Source: Octopus vulgaris (lineage: Eukaryota). Taken from it: a DNA stretch of 64,000 bases. Shown in pieces: positions 7,601 through 61,058 of this stretch (the first letter of the stretch is position 1; each line of letters starts with the position of its first letter). The notes beneath the pieces were generated by a model, which had not been told where the DNA came from, made no database searches, and was given only the letters and a program-made list of their open reading frames with translations. Both the position numbers and the translations under genes were made by a program. The DNA lies in contig OX597829.1 in NCBI GenBank assembly GCA_951406725.2, forward strand, positions 23,498,001 through 23,562,000, in the 5' to 3' direction.

Positions 7601-7801
7601 TGCCACCACCAGACACCCAGCAGTTATATCTTTAGCCGTAGTGATCAGCTCAGGCCAGAGCTGACCTGGGGTTAAACAACAACATTACTGATAATGGTTT
7701 TTTCCCCAAAATTTAATTTTATGGAAAGATAAAAGATAAGAAAAACAATAACAATAGCAACCACAACAACAGCAACTATAACACAACAATAACCTACTTA
7801 C

Positions 7802-25272: not shown

Positions 25273-25519
25273 AAGGAAACACATCAAGATTCATACCCCA
25301 TAATTATGCATACATAAGTATAGAATGAGATAGTATGTGTATATGTACACATGCATACACACACACGTGTGTGTGTGTGTATGTATGTGTGTGTATATAT
25401 ATATATATCACATAAACACATGTGTGTGTATATACACGTGCGCTTGAGCAGAGCCATCTACTCTGAGGTTTTTTTTTTTCATCTTCAAATCACATCCCAT
25501 CATTCAGAAACCCGAGGTG

Positions 25520-26030: not shown

Positions 26031-26709
26031 AAAGATATCTAATACTACGTTAGCCGGATATGTTAAATTTGAGCAAAAAAAATCCAAATAATCAACCTTA
26101 TTATGAAAGAAAAAATGCTGAGTTCAAATAAAGCTAAAACATTATTTTTATTAGTTAATTCCAGAATATAAATAATTATCTTTTAAGCGGTTCTAAGACG
26201 AAAATTTATCAAATGTTACAGAACACGTGGTTTCGATTAAAGTTCTCCCAGTAATGTTATTGTTATGTTTCTTTCAACATATAAACTACCAATCAAATCT
26301 GAAGAATGCCTAATTAATACATCATTTGTGAGCAAAACTACGCTGAAAAGTCACTTCAACTGTGACCACAGAGACTTTATAGTCGTATTTATCACCACGT
26401 CACAGAACTTGTTCCCTATTGTTTGAAAATGAAACTATATGATAAGATTTTGCAGGTGTTTCTGGGAGAGCGGCCAACCTGGTGGAAGCTCTCAGGTTTA
26501 AGGATATTAGGAAGAGAAAAGATATCGTTTAAAAACAAAATAGCATTTGTTTACAATGTAAATCAAAGGGGAAAGATCAATAAAAAAAATTTAAGTTTCA
26601 AGAAAAATTTATTTTTATACGCGTTTAACGAATATCATTGAATGAATGATCTTTAAAATTATATCTACTGAAATAATCATTACAGAACAGTATATATATA
26701 TTAATGCAA

Positions 26710-26760
<51 letters not shown>

Positions 26761-27373
26761 CACTTGCATACAAAACAGTAACTTACATAAATGACGACCG
26801 GTTATATAGAACACGGTGCAGCCTGAAATAGTATGTTGTACTTACTAAGGACGGATTGTTGACTGCTAATCAGGTGCTACCAACGTGTCGGGCAATAACC
26901 CTTCCTTTAATAATTGTCTTCATAATTTAAGCACGAGTTGAACAGTTTTGAAAGGAGCGGGTTTAATAGTCGATACAATTGACCTGAGTACTACACCGGA
27001 TGGATGAAAGGCAAAGATTCACCTCGACGTAATTTGAAATCAGAACTTAAAGTGCCGGAAGAAATGCTGCAAGGCATTCAGTCCGATGCTTATGCGTGTT
27101 AATAATAATAACTTGAATTTACATTGCGGAAGTAATTGTTACAGCAATGTCATACAAATGCGTCTGTGTGCGCGCATTAATTTGTACAAAGTTATAAAAG
27201 GACCGGCAGTTTCTTGTATTGCATTTACCAAATAGTATTGATAAGTGCAATGCACGAAATTTTCAGTCCCCGAGTTCCTTCTGGAACTTTCAGTCGATTA
27301 AAAAAATAAATAAATACGTATATATATTCATATACTGAGTTCTTGTTCTTTTGTTTGTTCTACCCGACCTATA

Positions 27374-28292
27374 CAGGGTGTCCAGGAAAGATTTACCCAT
27401 GTTTAAAACTCTCCCTAAAGAATATCGATTCAGGTAATATTGTCTACATTTTATATAAAGATCTGCATATGTCTTTTGTTCATGTGTCTATTGTTTCGTT
27501 CGTCTATAACAGGTTTGTAAACAAACATGGCGTCGAAAGCAAAACGTGACCAGACTGTCGTTTTGAAAACAACTGGAGTGAGCAACAAAGACAACAAAAC
27601 AGTTGAGCGTGTGCCGTAAAACAGTGTTCAATGTCTGGAAACGATATATGGAATCCACCACTATCTCTAGCAAGCCAACTCCTGGTAGAAAACGATCAAT
27701 TCGTACACAACAAACTGTTAAAACTGAAGAAGCGAATGAACCGAAATCCCTGCAGGAGTCCAAGAAAAACTGCAAAAGCTCTTGATATTTCGAAATCGTC
27801 AATGCACTGGATTTTTAAAGCGGATGCTGGCATCAAGGTCAACAATGAAGTTTAGGTGAAAATATTGGATGAGAAAATGTCTTCCTGAGTCACAAAAATC
27901 TTTGGTGACCGTCACTCAAAATGGGGCCCTGGCCCACACATCCAATTTGATACAGAGGTGGTGCAAAGAGCAGATCAGCAGTTTGGGAGACAAGACAATA
28001 TGGCCTCCCTAAAGTTCAGACATCAGTCTCATGGACTTTGCAATCTGGTCCATTTTAGAGAGTAATGTTTCTGCTCACTCCTACCGTCTTCATGGGTCAA
28101 ATTGGATGAAGTGGTGGTACCACTAGTTGGCAGGTTATGATCAAGGTGAAAGGTGATGATTTTGAAACACAATTACTGCAATGGATTGACAATTTACATT
28201 AGAATGTGTGTGCCAAATTTTATTATCCTACTTTTAAGTTTATTTTGAATAATTAAGAAAGAACGATGGGTAAGTCTTTCTGGGACACCCTG
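27374..28292 (+). mobile_element. Tc1/mariner maT (DD37D) transposon, internally deleted
   Basis: 27-bp TIRs CAGGGTGTCCAGGAAAGATTTACCCAT (24/27 match), TA TSD at both ends, HTH remnants, Q(N)GALAHT...WPP*SSDISLMD with 37 residues between the catalytic positions. Confidence 0.9.
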
Positions 28293-28367: not shown

Positions 28368-30645
28368 TCATCATTGTTTAATGTCTGCTTTCCATGCTGG
28401 CATGGGTTGGATGATTTCACTGAGGACTGGCGAACCAGATGGCTGCACCAGGCTCCAATCTGATCTGGCAGAGTTTCTACATCTGGATGCCCTTCCTAAT
28501 ACCAACCACTCCGAGAGTATTGTGAGTGCTTTTACATGCAACTGGCACGAGGGCCAGTCCGGTGGTACTGGCAACGACCATGCTCAAATGGTGTTTTTAC
28601 ATGCTACCTGCACAGGAGCCAGTCTAGCAGCACTGGCAACGACCTCGCTCGAATGCTTTTTCACGTTCCACCGGCACAAGTGTCAGTAAGGAGACACTGG
28701 TAATGATCATACTCAAATGGTGCTTTTTACGTGCTACCGGCACAGAAGCCAGTCAGCTGCTCTGTCATCGATCATGCTCGGATGGTGCTATTAGTCATCG
28801 AATTTGATTACGATTTCGATGTCACTTGCCTTAATAGGTCTTCACAAGCAGAGCTTAGTGTCCAATGAAGGGAAGGTACGCATAATAAGTGGGCTGGGTA
28901 CACCCCTGGCATAGGCCACGAGGTTATGGTCTCACTTGGCTTGCCGGGTCTTCTCATGCACAGCATGTTTCCAAAGGTCTCTGTCACTAGTCATTGCCTC
29001 GGTGAGACCTAATGTTCGAAGGTCGTGCTTCACCACCTCATCCCAGGTCTTCCTGGCTCTACCTCTTCCACAGGTTCCCTCAACCGCTAGAGTATAGCAC
29101 TTTTTCACAGAAGCTATCCTCATCCGTTTTCGCCACATGACCATACAAGTGCAGTCGCTTCTCTTGCACACCACAGCTAATGCTTCTTAGGTCCAACTTT
29201 TCTCTCAAGGTATTTACACTCTGTTCGAGTATCCACACTGACATTACACATCCGGTGGAGAATACTGGCTTCATTCCTTGCAAGCTTACGCATGTTCTCA
29301 GCAATTACAGCCCATGTTTCACTGCCATGTAGCATGGCTGTTCATACACATGCGTCATACAGTCTACTTTTTACTCTGAGCAAGAGGCCCTTTGTCACCA
29401 GCAGAGGTAGGAGCTCTCTGAACTTTGCCCAGGCTATTCTTATTCTAGCAGCTACACTTTTAGCACATCCTCCCCTGCTACTGACTTGGTCACCTAGGTA
29501 ACGGAAGCTATCAACTACTTCTAATTTTTCTCTCTGGAATGTGGCAGTAGTTGTTCTCTGCACATTTTCAGTGTTTATTGCTCCTGAGCATCTGCCACAT
29601 ACAAAAACTATCTTCCCAGTTAGCCTTCCTTTGATATTGCTGCACCCCATGTGTCCATAGCTTACACTGGGTACATCTTATAGAATTTCTACCTACACCT
29701 TTTCTATAGATCAAGCAGGGCCATCTACCTGAAGGGATTTGTGATTTGCCTGCCTTCCTACTAATTAGGACTGGTTTTAGCTAGGTTGATTCTAAGGCTC
29801 TTCGATTCTAATCCTTGTTTCCACACCTGAAACTTCTCCTCTAGTGACTCACCAATTAGAGCAAGGTCATCAGCATAGAGGAGCTCCCAGGGGCATCCTG
29901 TCTTGAATTCCTCTGTTATTGCCTGGAGGACTATGATAAATAGGAGGAGGCTGTACTCGTTGCCAACCCTCACCTTACTGACAGCATCCCTGTAAATGAC
30001 TTGCACAGTCCTCACTAACCATTCATCTATCCCTAGTTATTTCATTGACCACCAGATAAGGGATCCATGTCAATGAAAGCCAGGTACAGAGGTTTATCTT
30101 TGACTAGGTATTTCTCCTGCAGCTGTCTTACCAGAAATATAGCATCAGTGGTGCTTATCCCTGGTGCAAACCCAAACTGCATCTCATTTAAACTGACTCT
30201 CTCCCTAATTAGTTAGGCTATGACCCTCTCCGTGACTTTCATTTCTTGATCCAACAACTTGATACCTCTGTAATTATTTGTATCTAAAGTGTCACCTTTA
30301 CTTTTGTAGCAGTTGACTATGGTGATGCTACACCAGTCATTGGATATGACTCCTTCGTGTATCACCTGGTTAACTATATGGGTGACTAGGCTATAGCCGA
30401 CACTGCCAGATATTTTGAGCATCTCTGCAGTTATTCCTGATGGGCCAGGGGCTTTCCCTGTCTTCATACTCTTAATTGCTTTATCTACCAAGGTACTGTC
30501 AACTCAGATAGCTGGTCCCTTTGTTAGGTTGACATTCGGCAGACTCTCTTTCTCCCACTCATTTTCTTTATTGAGCAACCTTTCATAGTGGCATCTCAAA
30601 ACCTCTCTCTTTGCAGCCTCGTTTAGTGCAAGTGAACCATCAGTA
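28368..30645 (-). mobile_element. 5'-truncated RTE-clade LINE (RT plus 3'UTR), degraded
   Basis: MKTGKAPGPSGITAEMLK, NYRGIKLL, ELLYADDLAL, LEVVDSFRYLG and ARIRIAWAKFREL motifs with frameshifts; ends in the shared ...CCATGC.AGCATGG...AAAC(GAT)n tail. Confidence 0.9.
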
Positions 30646-46641: not shown

Positions 46642-46854
46642 ATAAAACACAAAGTCTTTCAAAGAATATTCATTATCATTTCAAAACTAACCAGCTATGG
46701 AATTGAAACAAAATCTTGTGCTCTGATAATGGATATTTTGAAGCTGTTACACCATTAGCGAAAAGGAAGAAAGGTCTCTCTCCTGTAAATATAAAGAATT
46801 TAAAGGAACTTTTAATAAGGTAAACTGAAAAAAATATTTTAAAATTATTAATAA

Positions 46855-47320
46855 TCCTTTCTACTAAAGGCACAAAGCCTGAAATTTGTGGGGAGGGGTA
46901 GTTGATTACACTGGCCTGCGCTTCACTAGTACTTTATTCACTGACCCTGAAAGGATGAAAGGCAAAGTTGACCGTGGTGGAATTTGAAGTCAAAATGTAG
47001 CAATGGGCAAAATACTGCTAAGCATTTCACCTGGCGTGCTAATGATTCTGCCTTGTTAATAATAATGATAAAATTAATGGTTTCAATTTTGGCACAAGGC
47101 TAGCAATTTAAGAGTGAATGGGATAGTTGACTACATCTACACTGAAAGGATGAAAGAAGTTGACCTTGGAACATAAACACTGAAGAAATGCCACAAAGCA
47201 TTCTGTCCAGTGTGTTAAGAATTCTGCCACTTCACTACTTTGTTTAATAATTCTTTCTACTAGAGGTACAAGGCCTGAAATTCTAGGTGGGGTTAAAACT
47301 AGTCGATTACATCAAGCTCC
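46855..47320 (-). mobile_element. Three head-to-tail SINE-B copies (others at 1095-1225, 3655-3865, 19185-19378, 26920-27095, 38455-38855)
   Basis: Repeated GAAAGGATGAAAGGCAAAGT(C/T)GACC block on the + strand. Confidence 0.75.
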
Positions 47321-47481
47321 TGTACTTTGCTACCATTTCACTGTCTTGTTAATAAATAAAATAAATCATCTCACAAACAACGATAAATAGAAAGGAAATA
47401 AATGTTAATTCGATATATTTCATAATAATAATGCATATTACTGATTGATGTATATTTGATAAGAAAAACCAAGCTTACCTT

Positions 47482-50400
47482 TTAAGACTGCATTTGAGAA
47501 AATAATTCAGCTGCAGTTGTTCCAGTGATAGTTTGACCAGATGTTTCGTATTGCACTGTTCCATCTCCCTGTTCAACGATAGCATGAGCAACTTCTTCTG
47601 GGTTAGCTGTATGCACAATAATAATGGTCTCTTGTCCACCCTCTGTTTGTAATGTAGTTATTGTCTGATTGTTAAGTTCGTGTGCTGCATCAGTGACAAC
47701 AGCAGTATAAGTTCCTTCAGCAACTGAACCATCAGTTACTGTAGCATATACTGCTTGAGATTGTACTAATTCGGTTACTTTTCTCATGTCATCAATCTCC
47801 TCATCATCCATACCATCATCTAACATTTCATCCTCATCATCATCATCATCTTCGTCTTTAATCAGTGGAGCCATTTCTCCAGCAGCTACGTGAACTTTTC
47901 CAATATGTTCAAGCAATAATTTCTTACGTTTAAAAGTCTCCTGGCACATATCACATTGATAAGGTGATAATTTCTTATGCACTAATTGAATATGAGACAT
48001 AAGGTTCGACTTATTATTGAAGCAGCGGCCACAATCAGTGCACTTGTGTGGTTTTTCTCCTGTATGTATAAGCATGTGCCGGTCAACATGGTACTTCTTT
48101 GTAAACCTTTTCTCACAGACAGAGCAAATGAAAATTTTTTGATTAGGAGATTTCCAACCTTCATGTACTCGTTTCGTATGCCCAATAAGAGCACCTAAAG
48201 TTTTGAATGCAGCTTTGCATACGTCACAGAGATACTGACGAGTGTGCAAATGCATACCTTTAATATGAGTGTTAAGATTTCCACGGAATGCTGATGAATA
48301 ATCACAATGAGGACATTTATAAGGCTTTCTTCCAGAATGAACAGTGCGCATGTGAGAGCTGATTCCTGTTCTTAAGACTACCTTTCCACAAATTGGACAA
48401 GCGCTTTGCATTCTGTTTTGCTGGTGAAGTTCTTGATGGCGCTTCATATTTTTCGTGACCTTACCACATTCAGAACAGGTCTCACCAGCTTCGTCCCCAC
48501 CTTGTGTTGAAACTTTCATGATACGCTCTCTCCATTTTGCATTACGCATTTCTTCATCATAATCTGCTTCATGGCGATGTTTACTCTTAATATGCTTTAC
48601 CAGACCAATGAAGGCCTTATCGCAAAATGGACATTTCAGAGCTTCTTCAGTGTTTCTTTTAACACTCTTGCGCTTCGGTTCATCTTCAAATAAACTGAAA
48701 TCTGACTCTTCCTTCTTTCGGCGACGTCTTCTATAAAGATCTCCATCATCTGCATCTATTTCATCAATTTCACCTTCTTGCCCAAGTGGTCCAAATTTCT
48801 TTTTTCTCAGTCGTGGATCTGTCTGTGTTTGTACAGATCGTCTACCAGGAGATTCAAAAACAGTTTCAACCTCAACAAACTGAGGTGTCTGTGGTGTCCT
48901 TGGAGATTTGTCTTGCATAGCAGCATTTTTTGCAGCCAAAAACTCATCCTCATCAATTTGATCAATGTTATAAATATCATCTTGTTTGTCATCAAGTCTC
49001 CGCCTGTGCACTCTAATAGGAGTGAGAACTGCTCCATCATCTCCACAGATAATTCTTGACAAAGATTCTTCTTCAAGCTCATAAATTTCCTCTCTATCAT
49101 CTCTGTCTTCAATAGTATTGTCATTTTTATCTTCAATATACCCTTCCATGTCCTCTACTTCCATTTCAAGAGGCTCCTGTTTCATGTCTCGCATGGATTC
49201 ATTACTACTTTTAATATGAGAATACGACATGGTTTTACTTCTAGGAGAAGTGATAACAGTTCCTATATATTCATCACTTTCGTCATCATCCTCGTCGTCT
49301 TCCTCAACTTCTTCAATCTCCTCTTCCTCCTCTTCATCTTCGTCAACATCATCATCTTCACTATCATCATAAATTGTACTTGTACCTACAGCAGTATCTT
49401 CAAAATACCTTGCTTTCTTTTTTGGCGAAGCCATAGAAACTTTAGATGGAAGATCAATTCTTGATAATTCACTAACAGCTTCATCACTTTCTTCTGAAGG
49501 CACCTCATCGTCATCAAATTCAGCCTTACGCTTCCTGACATACTTAATTCCAGAAGTGCTAGCAACTGGCTCACCATCTTTCTCACTCGCTGCCTTTGAT
49601 CGGCGACCTGAAGATTTCTCAGCTACTTCAATACTCTCAGCATCTTTCTTTGCAGATTTTGGTGTTTCCTTACTTTTTGGTCTACCACGACGTGGCAGAG
49701 TATCTTCAGCTTTCTTTGACACATTCGGTGATTCTTTTGCTGCGTCCTTGCCCTTTGAAGATAATTTTTCCTTTTTCTTAGTAGATGTTTCAGGAGAGGA
49801 CTTTTTCTGTGACTTTTCTTCCTGACCTTTCTTTATTCTGCCAGAACGGCGCCTACCTTCTTCTTCGTCCTCCTCCTCTTCTTCATTGCTAATCTTCTGA
49901 CGTTTAGCTCGTCCTTCTGGAGAATCAACATCGTAATTCTTTTCTAATGAATCTTTTCTTGGACGACCTCTCTTTTGACTTGAAGAAGGCGTGTCGTGTT
50001 TTTCAGTGGTTGCTTTTTCTGCTTTCTTAGGAGGATCATCTTTCCGAGGCCTACCTCGCTTTCGTTTTAAAGTAGATTCATTCTTAGATTCCCCTGCACT
50101 ATCAACACTTTGTTCAGCGTCTTCGGATAAATCAGTTTCTTTGGAAGACTTTCTCTTTGTTTGTTTGGTTTCTTTTGTAGCACTAGGCTCTGATTCATCA
50201 CCACTGGTTTCTTTGCTCCGAACACGTAAAGATCGGTTACTGGATTTTGGAGTTTCAAACTCACTATCTGTGCTTTTAGTGGCCTGAGATGCTGCTGGAG
50301 TAGTAGACTTAGGTGGCCTACCTCTACGTCTTGGAGTTGCTGCTTCTGTTTGTCCTTTGTTCCCAGTCAAATCTGGAGTTGCACACTCAATAATCTGTAC

Positions 50401-53400
50401 ATCGTCTTGCTGTTCAGTTACAGCTTGTTGACTGGCTGCTAATTGTTGTATACTAAGTGTTCCCTGATCTTGTAAAACTACTGCCTCTAGTTGTTGCTGT
50501 TGTGTCTGGCCATCCAATGCTTCTAGTGGCTGCTCTCCACTGTTAACTGTTTGCAATAGAGTCTCCCCACCAGCAACAACCTGAAGCTGCTGTTCTGAAA
50601 TACTAAATGTTTCTAGTTGGTTGCTAGGGGTACTAACAAGTGCCAGTTGATTCCCTGAAGTACTGACAACTGTCAACTGATTTCCAGAAGCTCCAACAAC
50701 TTCCAGTTGACCCATTTGAGTTCCAAAAACTTGTAATTGGTTCCCTGACGCACCAACAACTTCTACTTTATTTTCCGGGGTGCTCACAACTTCTATTTGA
50801 TTACTCGGAGTACTAACAATCTCTACCTGGTTACTTGGAGTACTGACAATCTCTACTTGGTTACTTGGAGTACTGACAATCTCTACTTGGTTACTTGGAG
50901 TACTCACAACCTCCACTTGACTTTCTAGAGTACCAACAACTGCTTGATTCGCTTGTGTAGTAACAGTCATTTCTGGAATGCTGACAACTCCTAAATGATG
51001 TCCTGCAGCACTGGTGGTGGAGGACTTTAACTGGTATTTTGGAGAGTCAAACTTCTGCATCTTTTGAGGTGGTTCAACTTGTTGCACTTCCTTGTTAGTT
51101 TCCCCTACTTGTTTTAAAATACTGGACATTGGTACTTGTACCTTCACTGTCTGCGTCTGGCCAGCTACAGCTGCATCTTCTTTTGGTTTATTAATAGATA
51201 TAGATTTTAATTCCCCGACAGTTTTTGTCATAGAACTTTGCTGATTAGTCTCCTTTGTTGTTTCTGCTTTCTTCCCAGCTGCTTCTTTCAAAGATTCTGC
51301 CTTCTTTACAGTTTCCTGAGACACCTCCACTTTCTTCGGTGATTCTGTCTTCTCAACATCTTTGGCAAATTCTGTCTTTTTCCCAGTATCTTTTGATACT
51401 TCTTTTCTTCCAACATCTTTTACTTTCTGAGCATCTTTTGGTGACTCCACCTTTTTCACAGGTTCTGCTCTCTTCCCAATATCTTTTTGTACCTCTGCCT
51501 TTTTTGCAGCATCCTTCGCACTTTCTACCTTTTTCCCAGCATCTTTAATAGGTTCAGCTCTTTTTGCAGCATCTTTTGGCGACTCTGTCTTTTTTCCAAG
51601 CTCTTTCGATGGTTCTACCTTCTTTGCAGCATCTTTTGGTGATTCCACTTTCTTTACAGCATCTTTTGGTGGCTCTACCCTTTTTCCAACATCCTTTGAA
51701 GGTTCCACTTTCTTTGCAGCATCTTTTGATGGTTCCACTTTCTTTGTAACATCTTTTGGTGGTTCCACTTTCTTTGTGGCATCTTTTGGTGGTTCTGCCT
51801 TCTTTGCAGCATCTTTTGGTGGCTCTACCTTCTTTGCAGCATCTTTCGGTGGTTCTGTCTTTTTTGCAGCATCTTTTGGTGGCTCTACCTTCTTTGCTGC
51901 ATCTTTTGGTGATTCTGCCTTCTTTGCAACATCTTTTGGAGGTTCCACCTTCTTTACTGCATCTTTTGGTGGCTCCACCTTCTTTGCTGCATCTTTTGGT
52001 GGCTCTACCTTCTTTGCTGCATCTTTTGGTGGCTCTACCTTCTTTGCTGCATCTTTTGGTGGCTCTACCTTCTTTGCTGCATCTTTTGGTGGTTCTACTT
52101 TCTTTGCAGCATCTTTTGGTGGTTCCACCTTCTTTGCAGCATCTTTTGGTGGTTCCACTTTCTTTGTGGCATCCTTTGATGGTTCTACTTTGTTGGCAGC
52201 ATCTCTTGACACTTCCATCTTCTTCACAGTATCTTTTAGTACTTCTACTTTTGGAGGCTCCACCTTCTTTGCAACCTCTTTTGGCATTTCTACCTTCCTT
52301 CCAACATCTTTTGGTGGTTCAACCCTCTTTGGAACATCTTTTGAAAGTTCTACCTTCTTTGCAACATCTTTTGGTGGTTCCACTTTCTTTGGAACATCTT
52401 TTGGTGGCTCTACCTTCTTTGCAACATCTTTTGGTGGTTCAACCTTCTTTGGAACGTCTTTTTGTGGTTCAACTTTCTTTGCATCTTTTGGCAATTCCAC
52501 CTTCTTCCCAACATCTTTTGGTGGCTCCACTTTTCTCGCAGCCTCATTTGATGATTCCATCTTCTTTGCAGCCTCTTTTGACAGTTCCACTTTCTTTGCA
52601 ACATCTTTGGAAAGGTCTATTTTCTTTGCAGTATCTTGCAAATGCTCTGCTTTCTTCCCAGCTTCCTGTGGTATTTCTGTTCTTCTAACACTCACAGGTG
52701 GTGTGCCTGATTCCTTACTAACCTTCTGTAATGATTCTGTCTGTTTCTGAACATCTTGCACATGTTCTGGTTTCTTCCCCACTTCTTGTGATACCATTGC
52801 TTTCTTTACAGTGTTCAACACTGCTTCTGTCCTTTTTGTTTCTGTTCCTAAAGATTTTTCCTTTTGTACAGTTTCTGGAGCTTTCCCTGGTTGCACTACC
52901 AATGATCTCATGCTTTTAAGCTGTTGTGATTGTGCAGTGGAGGATTGCTGTTGATCTTTAGATTTAACATCTGAGAATATTTTTGATTCTGGAGTTTGGC
53001 CTTTTGGCACACTTTCATGTAGTCTTGAGGTTTGCTGTTGTACCGTACTAGGTTGCGTGGAGGCTGGTTGAGTGACAGATAAGATTTTAGACTGTGGTTG
53101 TTGTAATGTAGATGCAGCTGACATCACCTGCTTCTGAATAATAGGTTCTTGTTGACTAACTAACTGCTGAACATTAACTGATTTTGCTGATTGCTGCTGA
53201 CCAACAAGTGTTTCAGTTACAGTTTTTGGTAATTGTTGCTGTGACGGAATAGAAACTAAAGTAGTGACAGCAGGCTGCGATGGCTTCAATGTTTGTTGTG
53301 ATGAAACTTGGGTCACTGCTGCCTGTGTTGTTTGAACTGGCTTTTGCACTTGCACAACAATAGGTTTTTGCGTCTGTGGTGAGACAACAGCCTTAACTGG

Positions 53401-56400
53401 CAGCTGTGTTACAGTTGTTTTACCTGGCTCTGACTGAGACAAAGTTGTTGACTTTACAGTTTGCTGTTGCACGGTTACAGACTTTGTGGTTTGCTGCTGT
53501 TGTTGCAAGGATGTTACTTTTAAAGGCGGTTGCTGTACCAAAGTCACAGATTTTGCAGGTTGCTGTACAAGAGTAACAGACTTGGCCGGTTGCTGTAGCA
53601 CCACTGCTGGCTTTTCAGATTGCTGTTGCACTGAAATTGTTTTAGTAGGCTGCTGTTGTTGAACAGCTGTTGATTTTACTGGTACTTGCTGCTGTATTGT
53701 AACTGATTTTACTGGCTGCTGTTGTGCTGAGACCAATTTGGCTGGTTGTTGTATTATAATTGACTTTGTAGCTTGTTGCACTGTACCTGGTTTAGAAAGC
53801 TGCTGCTGTACTGTAACTGGCTTAGAAGGCTGCTGTTGCTGTATAGTAACTGTTTTAGAAGGCTGCTGTTGTTGTACTGTAACTGGTTTAGAAGGCTGCT
53901 GCTGTTGTACTGTTACTGGTTTAGAAGGCTGCTGCTGTATAGTAACTGTTTTAGGGGACTGCTGCTGTTGTTGTTGTACAGTAATTGGTTTAGTGGATTG
54001 CTGCTGTTGCACTGTAACTGTTTTCGGAGACTGTTGTACAATAATTTGTTTTGTTACTGGTTGTGCAGTCGTAGTTTTAGCCGACAACTGTTGTGTAGAA
54101 GTCATTTGCACTTGTGTTGTTGGAGATTTTGCTATTTGCTTAGGCTGTTGCTGTTGTTGCAGTATGCTAGCTTGTGCTTGCACTCCTTCTTTTGGTTGTA
54201 AACGCTGAATGGGTTTTGGCTGTAAAACTTGGAGACCTGGTTTAACTTGTACCGACTGTGCTGGTTTTGATACTGGCGATTGGACTTGCCATGTAGTAAT
54301 CTGTTGGGGTTGAGTCTGTTTCTGTGGAGATGTGGTGGATGATTGTAGTACAATTTGTTTAGATTGTGGAAGTGTTATTGGCTGAGTAACTGTTTGCTTC
54401 AACTGCACAGGCGTGGTCTTTACAGACGATTGTACTTGAGCTTCTTGTGACGGCTGAAGTAAGGACTGCCCTGTTTTAGACATCGAAGCCATCTGTTGCA
54501 AAGAAACCTGTTGAGCTTGTGGCTGTTTTATTGTTATTGTCTGTGGACTTACAGTCGATGGTCTAGGTGCAGATATTAGTGATACTTTGGAAGGTACAAG
54601 TTTAGAAGGAGTAACTGCTGATTGGAGCTGAGAAGATTGTTTAGCCTGAGTATAAGTGATTGGCTGTGTTGTAACCAACTTAGAAACTGTACTTTGCTGT
54701 GATTGGTCCAATTTCGGCAAAGATGCACTTGTTACTGGTTGTTTAAGCAAAGTTTGCTGAGTTGTTTGTGCCTGTTTCAGTAATGAGGTTTGTGCCACCT
54801 GAGCTGGTTTTGGAGCAAATACAAATGTCTGTTTTGTTGGCAATTGAGATGTTACCTGCATCTGTTTAGAGGTGTTAATTGTAGATGGTGTAGAAGCGGA
54901 TGTAGACTGTCCAGCTTGTTTATTAATAAGCTGAACATGCTGAGAAGATACAACTGGATTTGAAGGAGATGTAGACTGAACCTGAACTTGCTTAGCTTGA
55001 GATACAGCTTGTGAGACTACAGTCTGCTTTGGCGGCAATGTTGCTGATAGTACAGATTGTTTTTGTTCAGCTGCTTGCCGAGATTTCTCAGTTTGCTGAC
55101 CAGCATCTCTAAATTTGGAAGCAGCCTGTGTATTAATGGATGTTGTGGTTGTTGATCCAAGAGTACTGGTCACAGTTGAAGTGGTTGTCAAAAGAGTAGA
55201 GCCAGATTTAGCTGTTAATAAATTGCCTGCTGACTGTTCTTCGGAACCAACAACATCAAATACATATTGTTGATTATTGTCTTTTTGCTCGGTTCCCTCA
55301 AGGTCTGCATCAGTAGAGGTTTTTATTGTCTCAGTAACAATAGATGCTGCACTACCAATATCAACCATTATTACCTCATGTCCCCCTTGGATATTGGTGA
55401 TAAGCAATTCATTACTAGAAGCTTTTGGGTCAACTGAAAGCATATCTCCTTCTTTTGCCACTGATTTTTGCATTGTCTCCAAATCTTTTTGCAAGGAAAT
55501 AGCTACTGGTGTTTCTTTAGACTTAATATCAGGAGAAAGAGACACCAAGCCTTTTAAATCTGCTGGTAACTGCTTAATTGGAAAATACTTTTCTGGTTGA
55601 TCTGAATCCGTTTTTGTCACATGCTGAACAACATAATAAGGTGATGACTCAGTAGGCACTTCATTGGTCTCATCATTATTTGAGTCAATATTCATTGCTG
55701 ATGAATCGATACTTACAGTTTCCTCCTTGATTATTTGTTCAGTTTCTATTTCCATTGGTATGGAATTCTGAACTTCAGTTTCACTCAAGTCAATGACAAA
55801 GAACTGTGCACCATCAGCAGATGCTTGCAATGTTGCTTTATTCAGGTCAACACCACTAGATTTTAGCATGTTATGGTCCAGTTGAAAATAAGTTTCTTGA
55901 ATGGCTGCTTCTAAAGCAGGATTTTTCTCTTCCATCTTTGAATCTTTTGAAGTTATTTGTATTGGTGTGCTATCAAGTGTACTACCATCTTCGCAAACAT
56001 AGGTGTTGTTTACAGATAAACTAACATTACCAGAAGTGGTCATAAACTCTGTATCTTTGCCAGTCAGAGAAGAGATTTGACTATTAGGATCTTGAACAAG
56101 AACAGCATGCTGTATCATTTGGTGTTTGATGGATGAGCCATCATCTTTATCTTGGTCTTTTTCTTTATCATTAGATTTAGTTTCAACAGCCATCACTTGA
56201 AGGGCTACATTATCTACAGGGATCAACTCTACATCCATACCACCAGACTGTCCTGTGAGTATGGATTTTGGTGTAGTGATACATGTTGCCTGACTACCAA
56301 GACTACTATCCAAACCTTTGATAAAAGCATAAGTAACTCCACCAAGTGTGGTACTAGTAACTTCAGTCGTTTCTATACCTTCTGACGTTGGCTGCACTTG

Positions 56401-56646
56401 GGGTAATGTAGTGAATAACTCTGGTGAGACAAGAACAGTTTGCGTTTGCTGAACACCAGCCGATGTAACTATGGCACCAGGAACAGAACTAAGAGAGGTC
56501 CCAGAAATGATATCCACATCAGTTACTGCATGAGATTCAGATGTGAGTGATCCAACATGGGTTGATGGAATTTGAATACTACCATCTTGAGTTTGAATTG
56601 TATCTGGATTTATTGACTGAGGAAGGTTGTTTCCAGATATTTCCAT
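47482..56646 (-). CDS. 3054-aa AT-hook / C2H2 zinc-finger protein with long low-complexity and tandem-repeat regions
   Basis: Uninterrupted 9165-nt ORF; AAAATGG start with an in-frame TAA at 56677-56679 upstream. Eight C2H2 fingers (47890-48633, TGEKP/SGRKP linkers), four RGRP AT-hooks (49675-50331), D/E tracts, Q/T/S/V-rich N-terminal half. Confidence 0.95.
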   Translation of the reverse strand: MEISGNNLPQSINPDTIQTQDGSIQIPSTHVGSLTSESHAVTDVDIISGTSLSSVPGAIVTSAGVQQTQTVLVSPELFTTLPQVQPTSEGIETTEVTSTTLGGVTYAFIKGLDSSLGSQATCITTPKSILTGQSGGMDVELIPVDNVALQVMAVETKSNDKEKDQDKDDGSSIKHQMIQHAVLVQDPNSQISSLTGKDTEFMTTSGNVSLSVNNTYVCEDGSTLDSTPIQITSKDSKMEEKNPALEAAIQETYFQLDHNMLKSSGVDLNKATLQASADGAQFFVIDLSETEVQNSIPMEIETEQIIKEETVSIDSSAMNIDSNNDETNEVPTESSPYYVVQHVTKTDSDQPEKYFPIKQLPADLKGLVSLSPDIKSKETPVAISLQKDLETMQKSVAKEGDMLSVDPKASSNELLITNIQGGHEVIMVDIGSAASIVTETIKTSTDADLEGTEQKDNNQQYVFDVVGSEEQSAGNLLTAKSGSTLLTTTSTVTSTLGSTTTTSINTQAASKFRDAGQQTEKSRQAAEQKQSVLSATLPPKQTVVSQAVSQAKQVQVQSTSPSNPVVSSQHVQLINKQAGQSTSASTPSTINTSKQMQVTSQLPTKQTFVFAPKPAQVAQTSLLKQAQTTQQTLLKQPVTSASLPKLDQSQQSTVSKLVTTQPITYTQAKQSSQLQSAVTPSKLVPSKVSLISAPRPSTVSPQTITIKQPQAQQVSLQQMASMSKTGQSLLQPSQEAQVQSSVKTTPVQLKQTVTQPITLPQSKQIVLQSSTTSPQKQTQPQQITTWQVQSPVSKPAQSVQVKPGLQVLQPKPIQRLQPKEGVQAQASILQQQQQPKQIAKSPTTQVQMTSTQQLSAKTTTAQPVTKQIIVQQSPKTVTVQQQQSTKPITVQQQQQQSPKTVTIQQQPSKPVTVQQQQPSKPVTVQQQQPSKTVTIQQQQPSKPVTVQQQLSKPGTVQQATKSIIIQQPAKLVSAQQQPVKSVTIQQQVPVKSTAVQQQQPTKTISVQQQSEKPAVVLQQPAKSVTLVQQPAKSVTLVQQPPLKVTSLQQQQQTTKSVTVQQQTVKSTTLSQSEPGKTTVTQLPVKAVVSPQTQKPIVVQVQKPVQTTQAAVTQVSSQQTLKPSQPAVTTLVSIPSQQQLPKTVTETLVGQQQSAKSVNVQQLVSQQEPIIQKQVMSAASTLQQPQSKILSVTQPASTQPSTVQQQTSRLHESVPKGQTPESKIFSDVKSKDQQQSSTAQSQQLKSMRSLVVQPGKAPETVQKEKSLGTETKRTEAVLNTVKKAMVSQEVGKKPEHVQDVQKQTESLQKVSKESGTPPVSVRRTEIPQEAGKKAEHLQDTAKKIDLSKDVAKKVELSKEAAKKMESSNEAARKVEPPKDVGKKVELPKDAKKVEPQKDVPKKVEPPKDVAKKVEPPKDVPKKVEPPKDVAKKVELSKDVPKRVEPPKDVGRKVEMPKEVAKKVEPPKVEVLKDTVKKMEVSRDAANKVEPSKDATKKVEPPKDAAKKVEPPKDAAKKVEPPKDAAKKVEPPKDAAKKVEPPKDAAKKVEPPKDAAKKVEPPKDAVKKVEPPKDVAKKAESPKDAAKKVEPPKDAAKKTEPPKDAAKKVEPPKDAAKKAEPPKDATKKVEPPKDVTKKVEPSKDAAKKVEPSKDVGKRVEPPKDAVKKVESPKDAAKKVEPSKELGKKTESPKDAAKRAEPIKDAGKKVESAKDAAKKAEVQKDIGKRAEPVKKVESPKDAQKVKDVGRKEVSKDTGKKTEFAKDVEKTESPKKVEVSQETVKKAESLKEAAGKKAETTKETNQQSSMTKTVGELKSISINKPKEDAAVAGQTQTVKVQVPMSSILKQVGETNKEVQQVEPPQKMQKFDSPKYQLKSSTTSAAGHHLGVVSIPEMTVTTQANQAVVGTLESQVEVVSTPSNQVEIVSTPSNQVEIVSTPSNQVEIVSTPSNQIEVVSTPENKVEVVGASGNQLQVFGTQMGQLEVVGASGNQLTVVSTSGNQLALVSTPSNQLETFSISEQQLQVVAGGETLLQTVNSGEQPLEALDGQTQQQQLEAVVLQDQGTLSIQQLAASQQAVTEQQDDVQIIECATPDLTGNKGQTEAATPRRRGRPPKSTTPAASQATKSTDSEFETPKSSNRSLRVRSKETSGDESEPSATKETKQTKRKSSKETDLSEDAEQSVDSAGESKNESTLKRKRGRPRKDDPPKKAEKATTEKHDTPSSSQKRGRPRKDSLEKNYDVDSPEGRAKRQKISNEEEEEDEEEGRRRSGRIKKGQEEKSQKKSSPETSTKKKEKLSSKGKDAAKESPNVSKKAEDTLPRRGRPKSKETPKSAKKDAESIEVAEKSSGRRSKAASEKDGEPVASTSGIKYVRKRKAEFDDDEVPSEESDEAVSELSRIDLPSKVSMASPKKKARYFEDTAVGTSTIYDDSEDDDVDEDEEEEEEIEEVEEDDEDDDESDEYIGTVITSPRSKTMSYSHIKSSNESMRDMKQEPLEMEVEDMEGYIEDKNDNTIEDRDDREEIYELEEESLSRIICGDDGAVLTPIRVHRRRLDDKQDDIYNIDQIDEDEFLAAKNAAMQDKSPRTPQTPQFVEVETVFESPGRRSVQTQTDPRLRKKKFGPLGQEGEIDEIDADDGDLYRRRRRKKEESDFSLFEDEPKRKSVKRNTEEALKCPFCDKAFIGLVKHIKSKHRHEADYDEEMRNAKWRERIMKVSTQGGDEAGETCSECGKVTKNMKRHQELHQQNRMQSACPICGKVVLRTGISSHMRTVHSGRKPYKCPHCDYSSAFRGNLNTHIKGMHLHTRQYLCDVCKAAFKTLGALIGHTKRVHEGWKSPNQKIFICSVCEKRFTKKYHVDRHMLIHTGEKPHKCTDCGRCFNNKSNLMSHIQLVHKKLSPYQCDMCQETFKRKKLLLEHIGKVHVAAGEMAPLIKDEDDDDDEDEMLDDGMDDEEIDDMRKVTELVQSQAVYATVTDGSVAEGTYTAVVTDAAHELNNQTITTLQTEGGQETIIIVHTANPEEVAHAIVEQGDGTVQYETSGQTITGTTAAELFSQMQS
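50540..50950 (-). repeat. Coding 30-bp repeat, ~12 units of QVEIVSTPSN
   Basis: Repeated ctctacttggttacttggagtactgacaat on the + strand. Confidence 0.9.
51290..52660 (-). repeat. Coding 30-bp minisatellite, ~40 units of KKVEPPKDAA
   Basis: Visible in protein and DNA (+ strand atcttttggtggctctaccttctttgcagc); homogeneous centre, diverged edges. Confidence 0.95.
53450..54060 (-). repeat. Coding Q-rich repeat, units of (P)SKPVTVQQQQ
   Basis: Roughly 15-20 variable-length K-x-V-T-V/I-Qn units in the translation. Confidence 0.85.
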
Positions 56647-59600
56647 TTTATAAAAAATATTTTCAAAGAGAATCCGTTATTTTTTATGGCCAGCTTTCCC
56701 TGTTAAGTCACTATTTTCCATGTATAGCAATTGCTTAACTCTCAATACTACATATTACAGAAGGCGTTTAACGCTATTTCTTGCTGATTGTTATTATTTG
56801 ATATTTCAAATCATTAGTTTTGAATTAATTCACCTGTTAAAAAGAGAGATAAATGTAAGCAAAGGACGCAAACCAAAACATATATATACACATACACACA
56901 TATAAATTTTTATATATCCCACTATCACAAAATAATCGAAATTTATCACCACTGTCAACTATATAAGAAACATTATGACTTGACGTGCAAGTTGTTGGTG
57001 GGGTGGGGGGTAAGGGGGCCTTTTACCACCTTTCATATTTGAAGACCACCGTCAAATTTAAGAGATCTTGTAAATTATCCACACAACTTTGTTCCGATAA
57101 CTTTTATAATTTTTTAGACAGAAAATTAAAGAACCTGAATTACTGGATTATTATTTGACTATGATCAAACAGCGATTACATTTATCGAGAGAACTTTGTG
57201 AATTACGTTAACATTTTAAACAAACTTCTAATAAGCAACCAGTTAAATCGGTCTTGCTTCCTCTTCACTTCATCTAAAGCTTTAAAAAAAATCCTCAATT
57301 TATCATATAGGAATTTGTCTTCAGAAATTTTATCATAATTTTCGGTAATGTTTAATAACGATTGCAACTTCAATACCTATATTTAAAACCAACACATTTC
57401 TTCCAAAGGTGATATTATTTATTGTTATATTTCGGAATGGTCATATTGCCAGTTTAGCCATTATTTAGATATTATTATTATTAATTTGATATTCTCACAG
57501 CACATACAACCACAATATGTACGTTTCCACTGTAGAACCACACATTCCGGGTAAAAAAAAAAAAAAATACCCGTACACACGATGAAAAATACGATAGATG
57601 GGCTATGGTAATCTTTTTCAAAATGAGATTACAAAGAGTCAATTTCGCGAGCAGCAAGCAGAAGAATTTAAAATTCACAGATCTCCTAACCTAATTTTTT
57701 TTTATATATAATTATCACAAGTTGATTTGCTATTTAACATAGAAATCGCCATACGTGTTTATATAAGCCGGATATTTTATGAAACGAACGTCCATTTATA
57801 AACAACATTTCCCAAAAATCAGTTATGTCCCCTATAAAGTTTTCGATGCGAAAACAGTTTACTCAATTAAAAATAATTGGTTCAATAAAAACATATTGGA
57901 CCTTGTAATAAATTAACAAGCTTTATCTTACAAGACTATTAAATACTACTATGTAACTATATAAGCAAAATGACTGTTAACCACGTGTACAAATATAAGG
58001 AACGGAATAATATAACTGAAAAAAAATAAAGGGGGAAACAATCTTTGGAGTTAAGTACGTTCTTACGGGGAATACATTGAGAATAACGAAAATATATAAA
58101 GGAGCTACTAAATATTAGTTTTAGGTTATTTTCTACATGTATGAGGAGACTTGACCTTGATAAAAGATAAAATTCTAATCGAAAGGAAGGTCACCGATCC
58201 AGTATTTATAAAATGGCTTTTATGTTGAAATATATTGAGACGAAGAAAAGATAAGTTAGGAAAAAAAGAGAGGTAAATCAGTTAGAAAGGAATAATCGAC
58301 CAAAGGGTATGTATCAAAAGCACACATTTCTTTAGCTGTAATAGCAAAATCATATATAAATTTAAGAAAGAGGCTATCTAATAATCTATAAATGCAATTG
58401 TTAAAGTTTAAAAAAAATACAATTGAATTTTTTATCTAAACAACTCTAATAGGAAACAAATTAGATCATACTCACAAATGTAAACAGTAAGTAGTGATAT
58501 TGCATTTAACAGAGTAACTGGACTTAATCTTTTAAAGTCTTTGTTTTTCTCAATAATAATAATAATAAAAAGATTCACTATATTATCCTTGTTCTGTGAT
58601 GAAGAAGTTATTTAACAATTAGCATATAGGTAGGTGGGCCCCCACCAATTCTTGGCGGGAAGAGGTACTAAGACTAATTTCTAACAGGATATACATATAT
58701 GACAACTTCCGTTAATGTTTTTGAGCACCAACAACTTTCTCGTCCATAAAGATGATAGAAAATTGAAGAAATAGATGACAGCCAGCAAACACGTAGACGA
58801 GACAGCTAAGACTGAATTTAATATAGTTTGAAGCTGTTCACAAACATTATTATGATCATGGGTAGGTGCAGATGTGGTGGCGGCGGCAGCAGCGTACCAC
58901 CACCACAGACAGGTCTGGGCTGAGCAAAAACGTGGAATTTTAAGAGCCTCGTGATAAAGACACATAATCAGAATATTTTAAATAAGTTCCTTATAGTGTG
59001 AAAATCGTTACAACACATCATAAACAGATCTTCGATGAAAATAGAATCAGTTTCCTGGAATATAATTTATATAAAGATACAATCTGATAAATTATTATAT
59101 TGGGGAAAAAAAATCTCCGATTTCAAACGAGTTAAGACGAATAGCTTTATATTATTTAATTTTTTATTTTATTTAATTTCACATATTTCTGATTTGATAC
59201 AGCGATGAAAAAAAAAAGCCCAACTTAGAATAAATTTTTGTATAATGTTCGTGAGCAAAAATTACTAAAGTGAAAAGAAGACAAAGAACATTATAAATCC
59301 CATTAGATGACTAATGGGATTTATAAAATGAAATATTTTTACAAAATCACTCCTGCTACATGACTTCGAGTACCTGGAGAAGGAGAAATACGCTGACATT
59401 TGCCTGAAACACCAGCTACATTATGAAAGAAGACTGCGCACTTAATTCTGTTATGGCGAAATTTTCTTATATTTCTATAGACAGACTTTTAATTACTGTA
59501 ATTGGTCGTTCAAAAGTAACATAAAAGCATATTATACAAATGATTTTACTATTTTCAACTCTGGTTACGCATCCATATGTATAAGATCAACGAAACGAAA

Positions 59601-60223
59601 AACAAAAAAAAAAGAAACAAGCAATATCGGTCAACTGAAGTCTAATATATATAAGATAGCTAGATATATTAATAGCAAAGTGAAATTAGGTGAAGACGAC
59701 ATTATTATGAGGAGTAGACGGGCATAAAGAATATAGCAATTAAGTACAGCTTACGTACATCCCAATCAAAACACACTCGCACACACACACATGCACGTAC
59801 ATATTAAAAGGCACACACGCAGCACAAAATGAATAGGAGAGAGAGAGAGACATCAAAATATCGTAAGATAATTGGTAGCCGCCATTTTAATTCACGTTTA
59901 GTGTTTCGTCAAGAGGACAGAAACAAGAGACAGAATAGCAACTCCGGCATTGATCGAAGCCGCTTTACAGGCAAAGTAGAGCAGCAAATACATCTTCCAA
60001 TATAGCAAAATGAAGTTGAAGGATTAAGGATTAAAGTTCAGTAAGAAAACCCATGTCACCCAGCAAGTAAGACCGGCAAAAACTAACGCAAAAATTGTCG
60101 CCCCTGTACAGGGGCAGTAACCGCGTGACTTTCGCCATTTTGAAAATCTAAATTCAATCTTAGTTATCGCCCGTTATAGAGCTTCAAATATCCTCCAAAG
60201 AAGGGTAAATCGTCGCAACTTAC

Positions 60224-60345
60224 CTTTAGCAGAACCCTGAAAAATGCCACGATGAGCTTAAACACAAACCCAAGTAGATGACAATGAAAGGATTTGCGAG
60301 TCCAGTCAGTCAAACAATAAAGACGCCATTTGCATCATCACTGAT
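60224..60345 (-). other. Probable non-coding first exon of the zinc-finger gene
   Basis: Perfect donor AAG|GTAAGT at 60223; AAATGGCG (YY1-type) motif near the 5' end; CpG-rich context; 7-codon uORF MASLLFD (60306-60329). TSS position is estimated. Confidence 0.6.
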
Positions 60346-60440
60346 TCTGGTATAGGCGAAATATTACCCATGATGCACTTACAAGTTTTCGTACAGTTTC
60401 GGTAACTTCCGTAAGCTGGTTGCTAAGCCCCCGGCATGGA
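60320..60440 (-). promoter_or_regulatory. Housekeeping-type promoter of the zinc-finger gene
   Basis: Cluster of CGCCATTT (YY1), TACCCATGATGCA (ZNF143/Staf-like), ACTTCCG (ETS) and GTTGCTAAG (RFX half-site) motifs; further GCCATTTT motifs at ~59880 and ~60135; CpG retained, unlike the flanks. Confidence 0.65.
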
Positions 60441-61058
60441 AAAACGAAGAGACCAGCTTGAAATAATAATCAGCAGTAATAATAGCGGCTCACGTAGAAG
60501 GTAGAAGCTGCAGCGGGTAGTGGCTGCTGCTGAGGTGGATTATTATTTAGCGTGACACTCACATACACAGACACACACTCACACTCACTAATAAGGTGAT
60601 ACTCTTTATTGAAAGAGTAAAGCTAGCATTAAACACGAGGGAGACAGGCATTTAGTAATTAATAAACCATCGGTACTCGTATATGACCATACTTTTTGTA
60701 TATATCTTCTAAATTGAAAGTAATAATATAACATCGGAAGTTGACCCTCTGGTCTGATGCAAGAGTAGTTCTCAATACCTTCTGTAATCAATCGTCTAGA
60801 GTCACATAGTATATATAGGTTGCTTTTACTTTTGGTTCGAACATTAAAAAAGTACTAATAATTACTGACTTGTTAGAGGTACTGCTGATAAACTTTCTTA
60901 TATACACCATCTCTCTCTCCCTCTATATATATAGAGAGAGGGAGAGAGACAGACAGACACACGTAAATGTGTATGTATATAACTGCATATCGTCTGTACA
61001 TATATATATACACGGACATATATGTCTAGGAATGTGTGTGTATATATATATATATATA

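What the first reader, a model, noticed from the sequence alone, without database searches (positions are those of the whole stretch)
47482..56646. 3054-aa single-exon chromatin protein: three repeat arrays, four AT-hooks and eight C2H2 fingers
Seen: about 2650 aa of largely low-complexity sequence (Q/T/S/V-rich, K/E/P-rich, acidic) precede only 8 C2H2 fingers, the first three atypically spaced, with 4 RGRP AT-hooks between. This differs from the long TGEKP poly-finger arrays typical of the cephalopod C2H2 expansion, and I do not recognise it as a named gene. Inference: a large scaffold that reads AT-rich DNA (this genome is full of (TA)n tracts) through AT-hooks and specific sites through fingers, with a large disordered, condensate-prone body that grew by coding minisatellite expansion.
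Basis: partly seen in the sequence, partly recalled or inferred. Interest (0 to 1): 0.8.

Follow-up and report, generated by a model that had tools for sequence, protein, structure and literature searches.

The report
Giant version of ultraconserved mollusc zinc-finger
This real, spliced 3,054-amino-acid gene is an extra-long copy of an unnamed zinc-finger gene whose fingers are almost unchanged from chitons to clams and snails; it likely switches genes on at a fixed DNA motif, is predicted to be paired up by the hub protein LC8, and its ~1,400 extra repetitive residues are likely mostly a tolerated spacer.

Summary
The ORF (56646-47482, minus strand, 3054 aa), four RGRP hooks, eight C2H2 fingers (first three short) and three coding arrays are confirmed. 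The gene is not single-exon: it has one 9.36-kb coding exon between a spliced 5'UTR intron and a donor 3 nt after the stop. Contigs of three RNA-like runs cover the low-complexity body, so it is not spliced out. It is not an orphan or part of the cephalopod finger expansion. It is the orthologue of an unnamed, largely single-copy molluscan family: 27 of 61 hits carry a species name, all molluscs; fingers 3-8 are a median 95% identical; named relatives are 874-1510 aa with up to nine hooks. The nearest, unnamed relative (1645 aa) lacks about 1400 aa, including all three arrays. New here: an [ST]V-x-TQTD motif just before finger 1 in 64 of 64 family sequences fits the LC8/DYNLL1 motif, and a complex model seats it in the LC8 groove (0.74 vs best control 0.01). 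Best reading: a sequence-specific transcription factor, likely LC8-dimerised, whose disordered body grew by in-frame repeats in one lineage. The (TA)n-reading scaffold idea is unsupported.

The parts
60224..60454 (-). Non-coding first exon (as far as the longest contig reaches), in a CpG-rich promoter-like region; holds a 21-codon uORF
   Evidence: X5 record 21, X8 record 29; CpG profile
56834..60223 (-). 3390-nt GT-AG intron in the 5'UTR
   Evidence: joint in X5, X8, X15, absent in X17; splice contexts
47479..56833 (-). 9355-nt exon 2 holding the whole coding sequence
47482..56646 (-). CDS, 3054 aa
55072..56646 (-). aa 1-525: acidic T/S/V-rich N-terminus shared with nearest relative P0159 (51% identity); ends in FRDAGQQTE, kept only in these two
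52657..55071 (-). aa 526-1330: Q/T/S/V/P-rich basic region, mostly absent in P0159; includes the 33-nt (PSKPVTVQQQQ)n array at 53773-54033
51494..52656 (-). 30-nt array coding (KKVEPPKDAA)n, about 40 units including degenerate ones; absent in P0159
50593..50939 (-). 30-nt array coding (STPSNQVEIV)n, about 11 units; absent in P0159
50314..50325 (-). AT-hook-like core 1 (PRRRGRPPK)
   Evidence: kept in P0159
50047..50058 (-). AT-hook-like core 2 (KRKRGRPRK)
49960..49971 (-). AT-hook-like core 3 (QKRGRPRK)
49678..49689 (-). AT-hook-like core 4 (PRRGRPK)
49267..49368 (-). Acidic D/E tract
48814..48843 (-). RRSVQTQTDP (aa 2602-2611): predicted LC8/DYNLL1-binding motif, followed by a basic RLRKKKF stretch
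   Evidence: 64 of 64 family sequences; complex model; motif rules PMC6607443
48337..48633 (-). Short fingers ZF1-3 (x9, x9, x11), with a conserved 19-residue helix (aa 2696-2714, 48561-48505) after ZF1
47890..48315 (-). Canonically spaced fingers ZF4-8, likely the DNA-reading unit; 17 of 20 helix positions (-1, 2, 3, 6) invariant in 56 sequences
47614..47658 (-). Conserved tail motif TTLQTEGGQETIIIV in an acidic tail (possible activation or cofactor site; inferred)
   Evidence: [QE]ETIIIV in the window, P0159 and all 26 near-complete named relatives
47473..47478 (-). Splice donor GTAAGC 3 nt after the stop; downstream 3'UTR exon not located

Best explanation
It is a transcribed, spliced gene for the longest known copy of an unnamed molluscan AT-hook plus eight-C2H2 protein, which likely acts as a sequence-specific transcription factor, is predicted to be dimerised by LC8 through a TQT motif beside finger 1, and carries about 1400 extra repetitive residues that are likely mostly a tolerated spacer. 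Shown: the gene structure, the family, the near-invariant fingers, the conserved motif and the size and place of the insert. Inferred: fingers 4-8 read one DNA motif that has barely changed across Mollusca; the hooks add minor-groove grip on nearby A/T-rich DNA; one LC8 dimer clamps two chains just upstream of the short fingers 1-3 and their helix, giving a two-headed DNA binder; the acidic tail with the ETIIIV motif recruits cofactors. The host is likely an octopus (inferred from the repeat landscape, recalled, and from the tree position). Odds by step: orthology 0.95, sequence-specific DNA binding 0.8, LC8 binding 0.65, activator rather than repressor 0.55, insert mainly spacer 0.6.
For: Family: 30 of 31 hits at 53-83% identity to the pre-finger/ZF1-2 region among 1.84 billion representatives; 61 hits among 178 candidates, 27 named, all molluscs. 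Fingers 3-8: 88-100% identity, median 95%, 134 of 170 columns invariant in the 56 of 64 sequences comparable without gaps; helix positions -1/2/3/6 of ZF4-8 invariant at 17 of 20. The quick tree of 53 rows groups gastropods, scallops, oysters, mussels and heterodonts as expected; window plus P0159 at support 100. LC8: [ST]V.TQTD in 64 of 64, a second TQT in 47 of 64. It has the TQT anchor, an H-bonding residue at -4, Asp at +2 and no pre-anchor proline, the features favoured in PMC6607443 (passages). Complex model with an LC8 from locus L005: score 0.74, best of 3 controls 0.01; runs agree in at least 80% of contacts; partner pLDDT at least 56; aa 2601-2609 lie in the groove in both copies. 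Tool calibration: mark reached by 51 of 78 solved complexes and 2 of 108 mismatches (eukaryotes: 39 of 65 novel pairs, 2 of 126 unrelated). Insert: aa ~525-2103 has no counterpart in P0159. Listed variants between runs are 13 non-synonymous to 5 synonymous inside it and 1 to 5 outside (p = 0.050).
Against: No DNA-binding, expression-effect or interaction data exist here. LC8-peptide complexes are solved many times, so the model's pass may be from memory; peptides and disordered chains are outside its calibration; many TQT peptides do not bind (PMC6607443), and 2-client models give confident scores to some non-binders (PMC12057147). The LC8 used is a stand-in, not the host's. The window lacks the second upstream TQT (it reads TPQT), and -3 is Val rather than the favoured Lys/Arg. 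Against a pure spacer: among 22 KKVEPPKDAA units, 13 of 20 possible synonymous but only 16 of 70 non-synonymous changes are seen (p = 0.0008; transitions only p = 0.024, transversions only p = 0.074), which suggests selection on the peptide. The timing of the insert rests on one unnamed relative. 34 of 61 hits are unnamed, so non-molluscs are not excluded.
Confidence: 0.6

Rival explanations
1. An architectural or insulator-type protein: LC8-dimerised heads bound at two distant sites bridge chromatin loops or promoter pairs, and the long disordered body sets their reach.
For: Dimerisation motif next to a deeply conserved finger array; acidic regions flanking the fingers; single-finger dimerisation modules are common in fly architectural proteins (abstract of bioRxiv 10.1101/2025.09.04.674178). 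CTCF is among the top PDB matches, but only at 24-28% identity, like other finger proteins.
Against: No CTCF-specific similarity; nothing here tests looping. The LC8 site sits about 60 aa from finger 1, so the long N-terminal body lies outside the bridge.
Confidence: 0.17
2. One reading: an HMGA/D1-like scaffold that coats AT-rich or (TA)n repeats and forms condensates through its expanded disordered body.
For: Four RGRP cores kept in P0159; about 2650 aa with very few aromatic residues; synonymous excess among KKVEPPKDAA units; ZBTB24, a hook plus eight-finger protein, is reported at satellite repeats (search listing).
Against: Hooks are older than this lineage and usually more numerous elsewhere (median 5.5). 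Satellite binders tend to evolve fast (recalled), whereas these fingers are nearly invariant. AT-hooks prefer A-tract minor grooves over alternating TA (recalled).
Confidence: 0.13
3. The family is the fast-diverged molluscan branch of a known bilaterian zinc-finger gene, so its function is already known under another name.
For: 34 of 61 hits are unnamed; one long-branch unnamed row (P0128) is unplaced; the deep search used only the pre-finger/ZF1-2 region; the finger search was swamped by poly-finger proteins.
Against: The exhaustive phmmer shows a gap from 53% identity down to one 28% hit at E 8.5e-4. Non-molluscan spiralians are in the database (a Lingula protein appears), yet none is among 27 named hits. 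Atlas, PDB-sequence and fold searches gave only generic C2H2 matches.
Confidence: 0.15
4. A young, transposon-silencing member of the cephalopod C2H2 expansion, or a chance ORF or assembly artefact.
For: The genome is repeat-rich; contigs break at the perfect repeats (50857-50875, 51779-52144, 52378-52411), so array copy number is not independently confirmed.
Against: Single-copy-like family across four molluscan groups; 19 runs of 7 studies hold over 90% of the sampled words; spliced contigs; no frameshift or stop among listed differences in the ORF.
Confidence: 0.03

Closest known systems
Unnamed molluscan orthologues (e.g. Haliotis rufescens 'neurofilament heavy polypeptide-like', Mizuhopecten 'titin-like', Pomacea 'kinX', Biomphalaria 'ZBTB17', Liolophura 'titin-like')
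   Same: Same order of parts (acidic low-complexity body, RGRP hooks, TQT motif, eight fingers with three short ones, ETIIIV tail); finger block 80-98% identical, mostly 88-93%.
   Different: 874-1510 aa rather than 3054; usually more hooks; most have a second TQT; they lack the Q-rich, KKVEPPKDAA and STPSNQVEIV arrays. Their automatic names disagree with each other and none points to a study of this gene.
ZBTB24
   Same: AT-hook plus eight tandem C2H2 fingers; the last four give specificity; mostly an activator (PMC6895263, passages).
   Different: ZBTB24 dimerises through a BTB domain, which Pfam does not find here; finger similarity is generic (24-25%). It works like ZBTB24 but is not a ZBTB protein.
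ASCIZ/ATMIN
   Same: Zinc-finger transcription factor with a long disordered region whose TQT motifs bind LC8 as a parallel duplex (PMC5963919, passages).
   Different: ASCIZ has 7-11 motifs; this family has one or two, placed just before the fingers. No sequence-level relationship was found.
Cephalopod C2H2 expansion (PMC12513265)
   Same: C2H2 fingers, probably in a coleoid genome.
   Different: Not an expanded paralogue: conserved in gastropods, bivalves and chitons, with one TGEKP linker. It would be a 'non-expanded' gene in that paper, whose main text never mentions AT-hooks.
Titin PEVK / neurofilament-H KSP tails (recalled)
   Same: 10-residue K/E/P/V/A polyampholyte repeats, predicted disordered.
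   Different: Compositional likeness only; here the repeat sits inside a finger protein.

Membership tests
C2H2 zinc-finger transcription factors | Tandem C-x2-C-x12-H-x3/4-H fingers | tested here: met
   ZF4-8 canonical; PF00096 66.3 bits over a cutoff of 25.2
C2H2 zinc-finger transcription factors | Sequence-specific DNA binding | not testable with these tools
   Only indirect: invariant helix positions
Unnamed molluscan hook-TQT-8-finger family | Near-identical 248-aa finger block with short fingers 1-3 | tested here: met
Unnamed molluscan hook-TQT-8-finger family | [ST]V.TQTD before finger 1 and ETIIIV tail | tested here: met
Unnamed molluscan hook-TQT-8-finger family | Restricted to Mollusca | tested here: inconclusive
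   27 of 27 named hits are molluscs; 34 of 61 unnamed
AT-hook proteins | RGRP core flanked by basic residues or proline | tested here: met
   4 copies, 0.006 expected
AT-hook proteins | Pfam PF02178 match | tested here: inconclusive
   Not reported for the window protein or P0159; reported for the scallop orthologue P0130, 25.1 bits over 17.4
LC8/DYNLL1 clients | TQT anchor in a disordered stretch, H-bonding -4, D/E/P at +2, no pre-anchor proline | tested here: met
   RRSVQTQTDP against the rules in PMC6607443; low pLDDT there
LC8/DYNLL1 clients | Measured binding | not testable with these tools
   Model only: 0.74 vs best control 0.01
ZBTB family (ZBTB24, ZBTB17) | N-terminal BTB/POZ domain | tested here: not met
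   No BTB family among 14 Pfam hits at E up to 1, nor in three orthologues
Cephalopod C2H2 expansion | Coleoid-restricted, duplicated, long TGEKP arrays | tested here: not met
   Orthologues in chiton, gastropods and bivalves; one TGEKP linker
Retrogene (intronless copy) | Coding introns present in all relatives and lost only here | tested here: not met
   Bivalve-like DNA contigs L001 and L002 also carry hooks plus fingers in one exon

The most novel reading that the evidence does not exclude
A phylum-defining molluscan regulator: an LC8-dimerised, AT-hook-anchored finger protein found only in Mollusca that has read the same DNA motif since chitons, bivalves, snails and cephalopods split, acting as a promoter-wide or loop-forming factor, and whose octopus-lineage repeat arrays are selected modules that changed its spacing or multivalency.
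Probability: 0.18. Interest if true: 0.75.

Novelty: new variant of a known kind. Interest (0 to 1): 0.45.

Why it matters
C2H2 genes are usually either bilaterian-wide or fast and lineage-specific (PMC10547256, passages). A nearly invariant family that seems confined to one phylum, and is hidden under conflicting automatic names, is a good candidate for a core molluscan regulator. It can be tested now in oyster, abalone or squid embryos. The conserved LC8 motif gives a concrete route to dimerisation without a BTB or ZAD domain. The family is also a natural series for asking how much disordered sequence a transcription factor tolerates (874 to 3054 aa around a fixed DNA-binding core). The long copy alone is a moderate curiosity.

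Tried and rejected
Finger-block homolog search: the 120 listed of 442 hits were poly-finger proteins at 26-40% identity; uninformative. No protein of 1679-5345 aa shares the pre-finger region (0 of 83 candidates), so no long orthologue could be compared; this does not show that other octopods lack the insert. The cluster-member look-up could not be made and no whole genome is held, which leaves 34 of 61 hits unnamed and host copy number and synteny untested. No run was on record as RNA; RNA status of X5, X8 and X15 rests on their spliced joint. Retrogene idea: truncated gene calls stopping at Lys-Val or similar inside the fingers suggest introns in some molluscs, but L001 and L002 have the block in one exon, so a giant exon is not special here; rejected. 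Bicistronic or nested link to the downstream gene at 8219-948: that gene has its own CpG-rich region and donor near 26845; disfavoured, not excluded, because the 3'UTR exon was not located. Atlas, PDB sequence, Foldseek and VIA on ZF1-3 (best Z 4.8, none at 5 or more) gave only generic matches; this shows no new fold. AF2 models had pTM 0.23 and 0.39, so finger packing is not determined. FoldIndex called 86% of the finger block disordered, so it is not used as evidence. A predicted DNA motif from the recalled finger code was judged too weak to report. Homodimerisation of ZF1-3 was not modelled. Earlier findings: nothing in three look-ups. Literature: 0 papers hold mollusc + C2H2 + AT-hook + zinc finger; listings showed no title or abstract on this gene. 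Subscription journals were not searched, and the Dryad and supplementary data of PMC12513265, not seen, may list the gene.

Full report
Observation. The minus strand holds one open frame from ATG 56646 to TAA 47482, 3054 aa. RGRP occurs at aa 2108, 2197, 2226 and 2320, against 0.006 expected from composition. Eight C2H2 fingers span aa 2672-2919; the first three have 9, 9 and 11 residues between the second Cys and first His, the other five have 12. Pfam finds only finger families above cut-off, no BTB, and does not report AT_hook. TRF finds the three arrays, together 1732 nt or about 577 aa.

Gene structure. Nineteen public runs from 7 studies hold over 90% of the sampled words; none is on record as RNA. 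Four were laid on 46660-60900. X5, X8 and X15 each have a contig joining 56833 to 60224 across a 3390-nt GT-AG intron; X17 does not and covers the intron, so it behaves as DNA. In X5 one 4654-nt contig carries this joint and runs on through the Q-rich region to 52411. Further contigs cover 52144-52378, 50875-51779 and the 3' part of the frame. They break only at perfect repeats, and none of the 15 listed joints (169 not shown) lies in the ORF. X15 and X8 contigs stop matching at the donor 3 nt after the stop and carry 546 and 163 more letters; X5 is uninformative there. The gene therefore has a non-coding first exon, a 9355-nt coding exon and at least one 3'UTR exon, which was not located. A junction this close to the stop should escape nonsense-mediated decay (recalled 50-55-nt rule). 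Array copy number is not independently confirmed.

Family. A finger query was swamped by poly-finger proteins. The pre-finger region with fingers 1-2 gave 31 hits among 1.84 billion representatives, 30 at 53-83% identity and one at 28%. The same region of an abalone hit gave 61 proteins among 178 candidates; 27 carry a species name and all are molluscs: gastropods, bivalves and a chiton, 26 species, one land snail twice. No cephalopod is named. Their labels are automatic and conflicting (titin-like, kinX, ZBTB17-like, mel-28-like). The 248-aa finger block is 80-98% identical, mostly 88-93%. For fingers 3-8, 56 of 64 sequences (window included; 8 truncated or gapped ones dropped) compare without gaps: median 95%, 134 of 170 columns invariant, and 17 of 20 helix positions -1/2/3/6 in fingers 4-8 invariant. 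A quick tree of 53 rows (11 short rows left out; careful search unfinished; deep nodes weak) recovers the expected molluscan groups and joins the window with unnamed P0159 at 100. The 26 near-complete named relatives are 874-1510 aa with 0-9 RGRP, median 5.5, and all keep the ETIIIV tail.

What is special here. P0159 (1645 aa) aligns with aa 1 to about 525 (51%) and aa 2104-3054 (76%), keeps all four hooks, and lacks about 1400 aa between, including all three arrays. No protein of 1679-5345 aa with this region was found. Selection on the insert is mixed. Of 24 listed variants in the ORF (6 further rows in the stretch not shown), 13 of 18 in the insert are non-synonymous against 1 of 6 outside (p = 0.050). 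Yet among 22 KKVEPPKDAA units, 13 of 20 possible synonymous and 16 of 70 non-synonymous changes occur (p = 0.0008; transitions alone 0.024); for the STPSNQVEIV array the excess (p = 0.02) vanishes when split by mutation type. The insert looks loosely constrained, with frame and composition kept. The large exon is not unique: two bivalve-like DNA contigs carry hooks and fingers in one exon, although truncated gene calls point to finger-block introns in other molluscs.

LC8 motif. About 55-70 residues before finger 1, all 64 of 64 family sequences examined (fragments P0139-P0152 left out) have [ST]V-x-TQTD inside otherwise variable sequence, and 47 have a second TQT about 20-30 residues upstream; the window and P0159 do not. 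LC8 binds an 8-10-residue disordered motif anchored by TQT, favouring an H-bonding -4 and D/E/P at +2 and disfavouring pre-anchor proline, and many TQT peptides still fail to bind (PMC6607443, passages). It holds two client chains in parallel, as in ASCIZ (PMC5963919, passages). A model of two LC8 (locus L005, PF01221) with two copies of aa 2585-2624 scored 0.74 against a best control of 0.01; runs agreed in at least 80% of contacts, partner pLDDT was at least 56, and aa 2601-2609 lay along LC8 residues 62-68 with Gln2608 touching the other subunit. The tool's mark was reached by 51 of 78 solved complexes and 2 of 108 mismatches; peptides are outside that calibration and similar complexes are solved, so this shows likeness, not binding. 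Two-client models also score some non-binders well (PMC12057147, passages). Conservation is the stronger argument.

Structure. AF2 gives confident fingers and a 19-residue helix after finger 1 (aa 2696-2714, pLDDT about 85) but low pTM. Sequence, Atlas and fold searches gave only generic C2H2 or helix matches.

Mechanism. Most likely a sequence-specific transcription factor: fingers 4-8 read a conserved motif, hooks add minor-groove contacts, LC8 clamps two chains beside the short fingers, and the acidic tail recruits cofactors. All four steps are inferred. The insert is likely mainly a spacer. Rivals are an architectural bridging role (0.17), a satellite or condensate scaffold (0.13), a hidden known bilaterian orthologue (0.15) and artefact or young expansion gene (0.03).

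Comparison and novelty. It works like ZBTB24 (hook plus eight fingers; PMC6895263, passages) but lacks BTB, and like ASCIZ in using LC8 but with one or two sites. It is not part of the coleoid expansion described in PMC12513265 (first part and passages; no mention of AT-hooks; its data files were not seen). PMC10547256 (passages) stresses fast, lineage-specific finger evolution, the opposite of this family. bioRxiv 10.1101/2025.09.04.674178 was seen as abstract and outline only. Searches showed no paper on this gene. Verdict: a real gene, a new variant of a known kind; interest 0.45, carried more by the unrecognised ultraconserved family and its LC8 site than by the length.

Noticed in passing
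window 948-8219 and about 25500-27500 (- strand): A separate downstream gene: CpG-rich region with a GTAAGT donor near 26845, then coding exons at 8219-7802 (ATG 8164), 5378-5343 and 1019 to about 948. It resembles GSTCD from recall only; Pfam gave no hit above cut-off.
   Followed up: partly
window 48220: A-to-G on the mRNA strand (synonymous, Val2809) seen only in RNA-like run X8; either a SNP or an A-to-I edit.
   Followed up: no
window 60454-60224 and 56833-56647: The ~0.4-kb 5'UTR holds several upstream ATGs, including a 21-codon uORF in exon 1 and a 14-codon uORF ending 30 nt before the main ATG, which may limit translation.
   Followed up: no
window about 55110-55080 (aa 513-523): KFRDAGQQTE is kept only in the window protein and P0159 at the edge of the insert; it may be a second, non-canonical LC8 site replacing the lost upstream TQT.
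   Followed up: partly
window 46840-47320: Intron 2 begins with very high-copy transcribed repeat elements (summed depth in the tens of thousands).
   Followed up: no
window 28900-30500; 27500-28100; 9500-9850: Broken reverse-transcriptase/LINE-like and mariner-like remnants, labels recalled from the translated fragments.
   Followed up: no
P0127 and P0167: Two family members in one land snail, the only duplication among named hits; would fit a land-snail genome duplication (recalled).
   Followed up: no
L003-L010: Animal- or fungal-type dynein light chain genes lie on contigs of six bacterial genome records, most likely eukaryotic contamination.
   Followed up: no
runs X15 and X17 on window 47482-56646: X17 (label organism A) shares many variants with X15 (organism B) that X5 and X8 (organism A) lack, suggesting two close taxa under mixed labels.
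   Followed up: no
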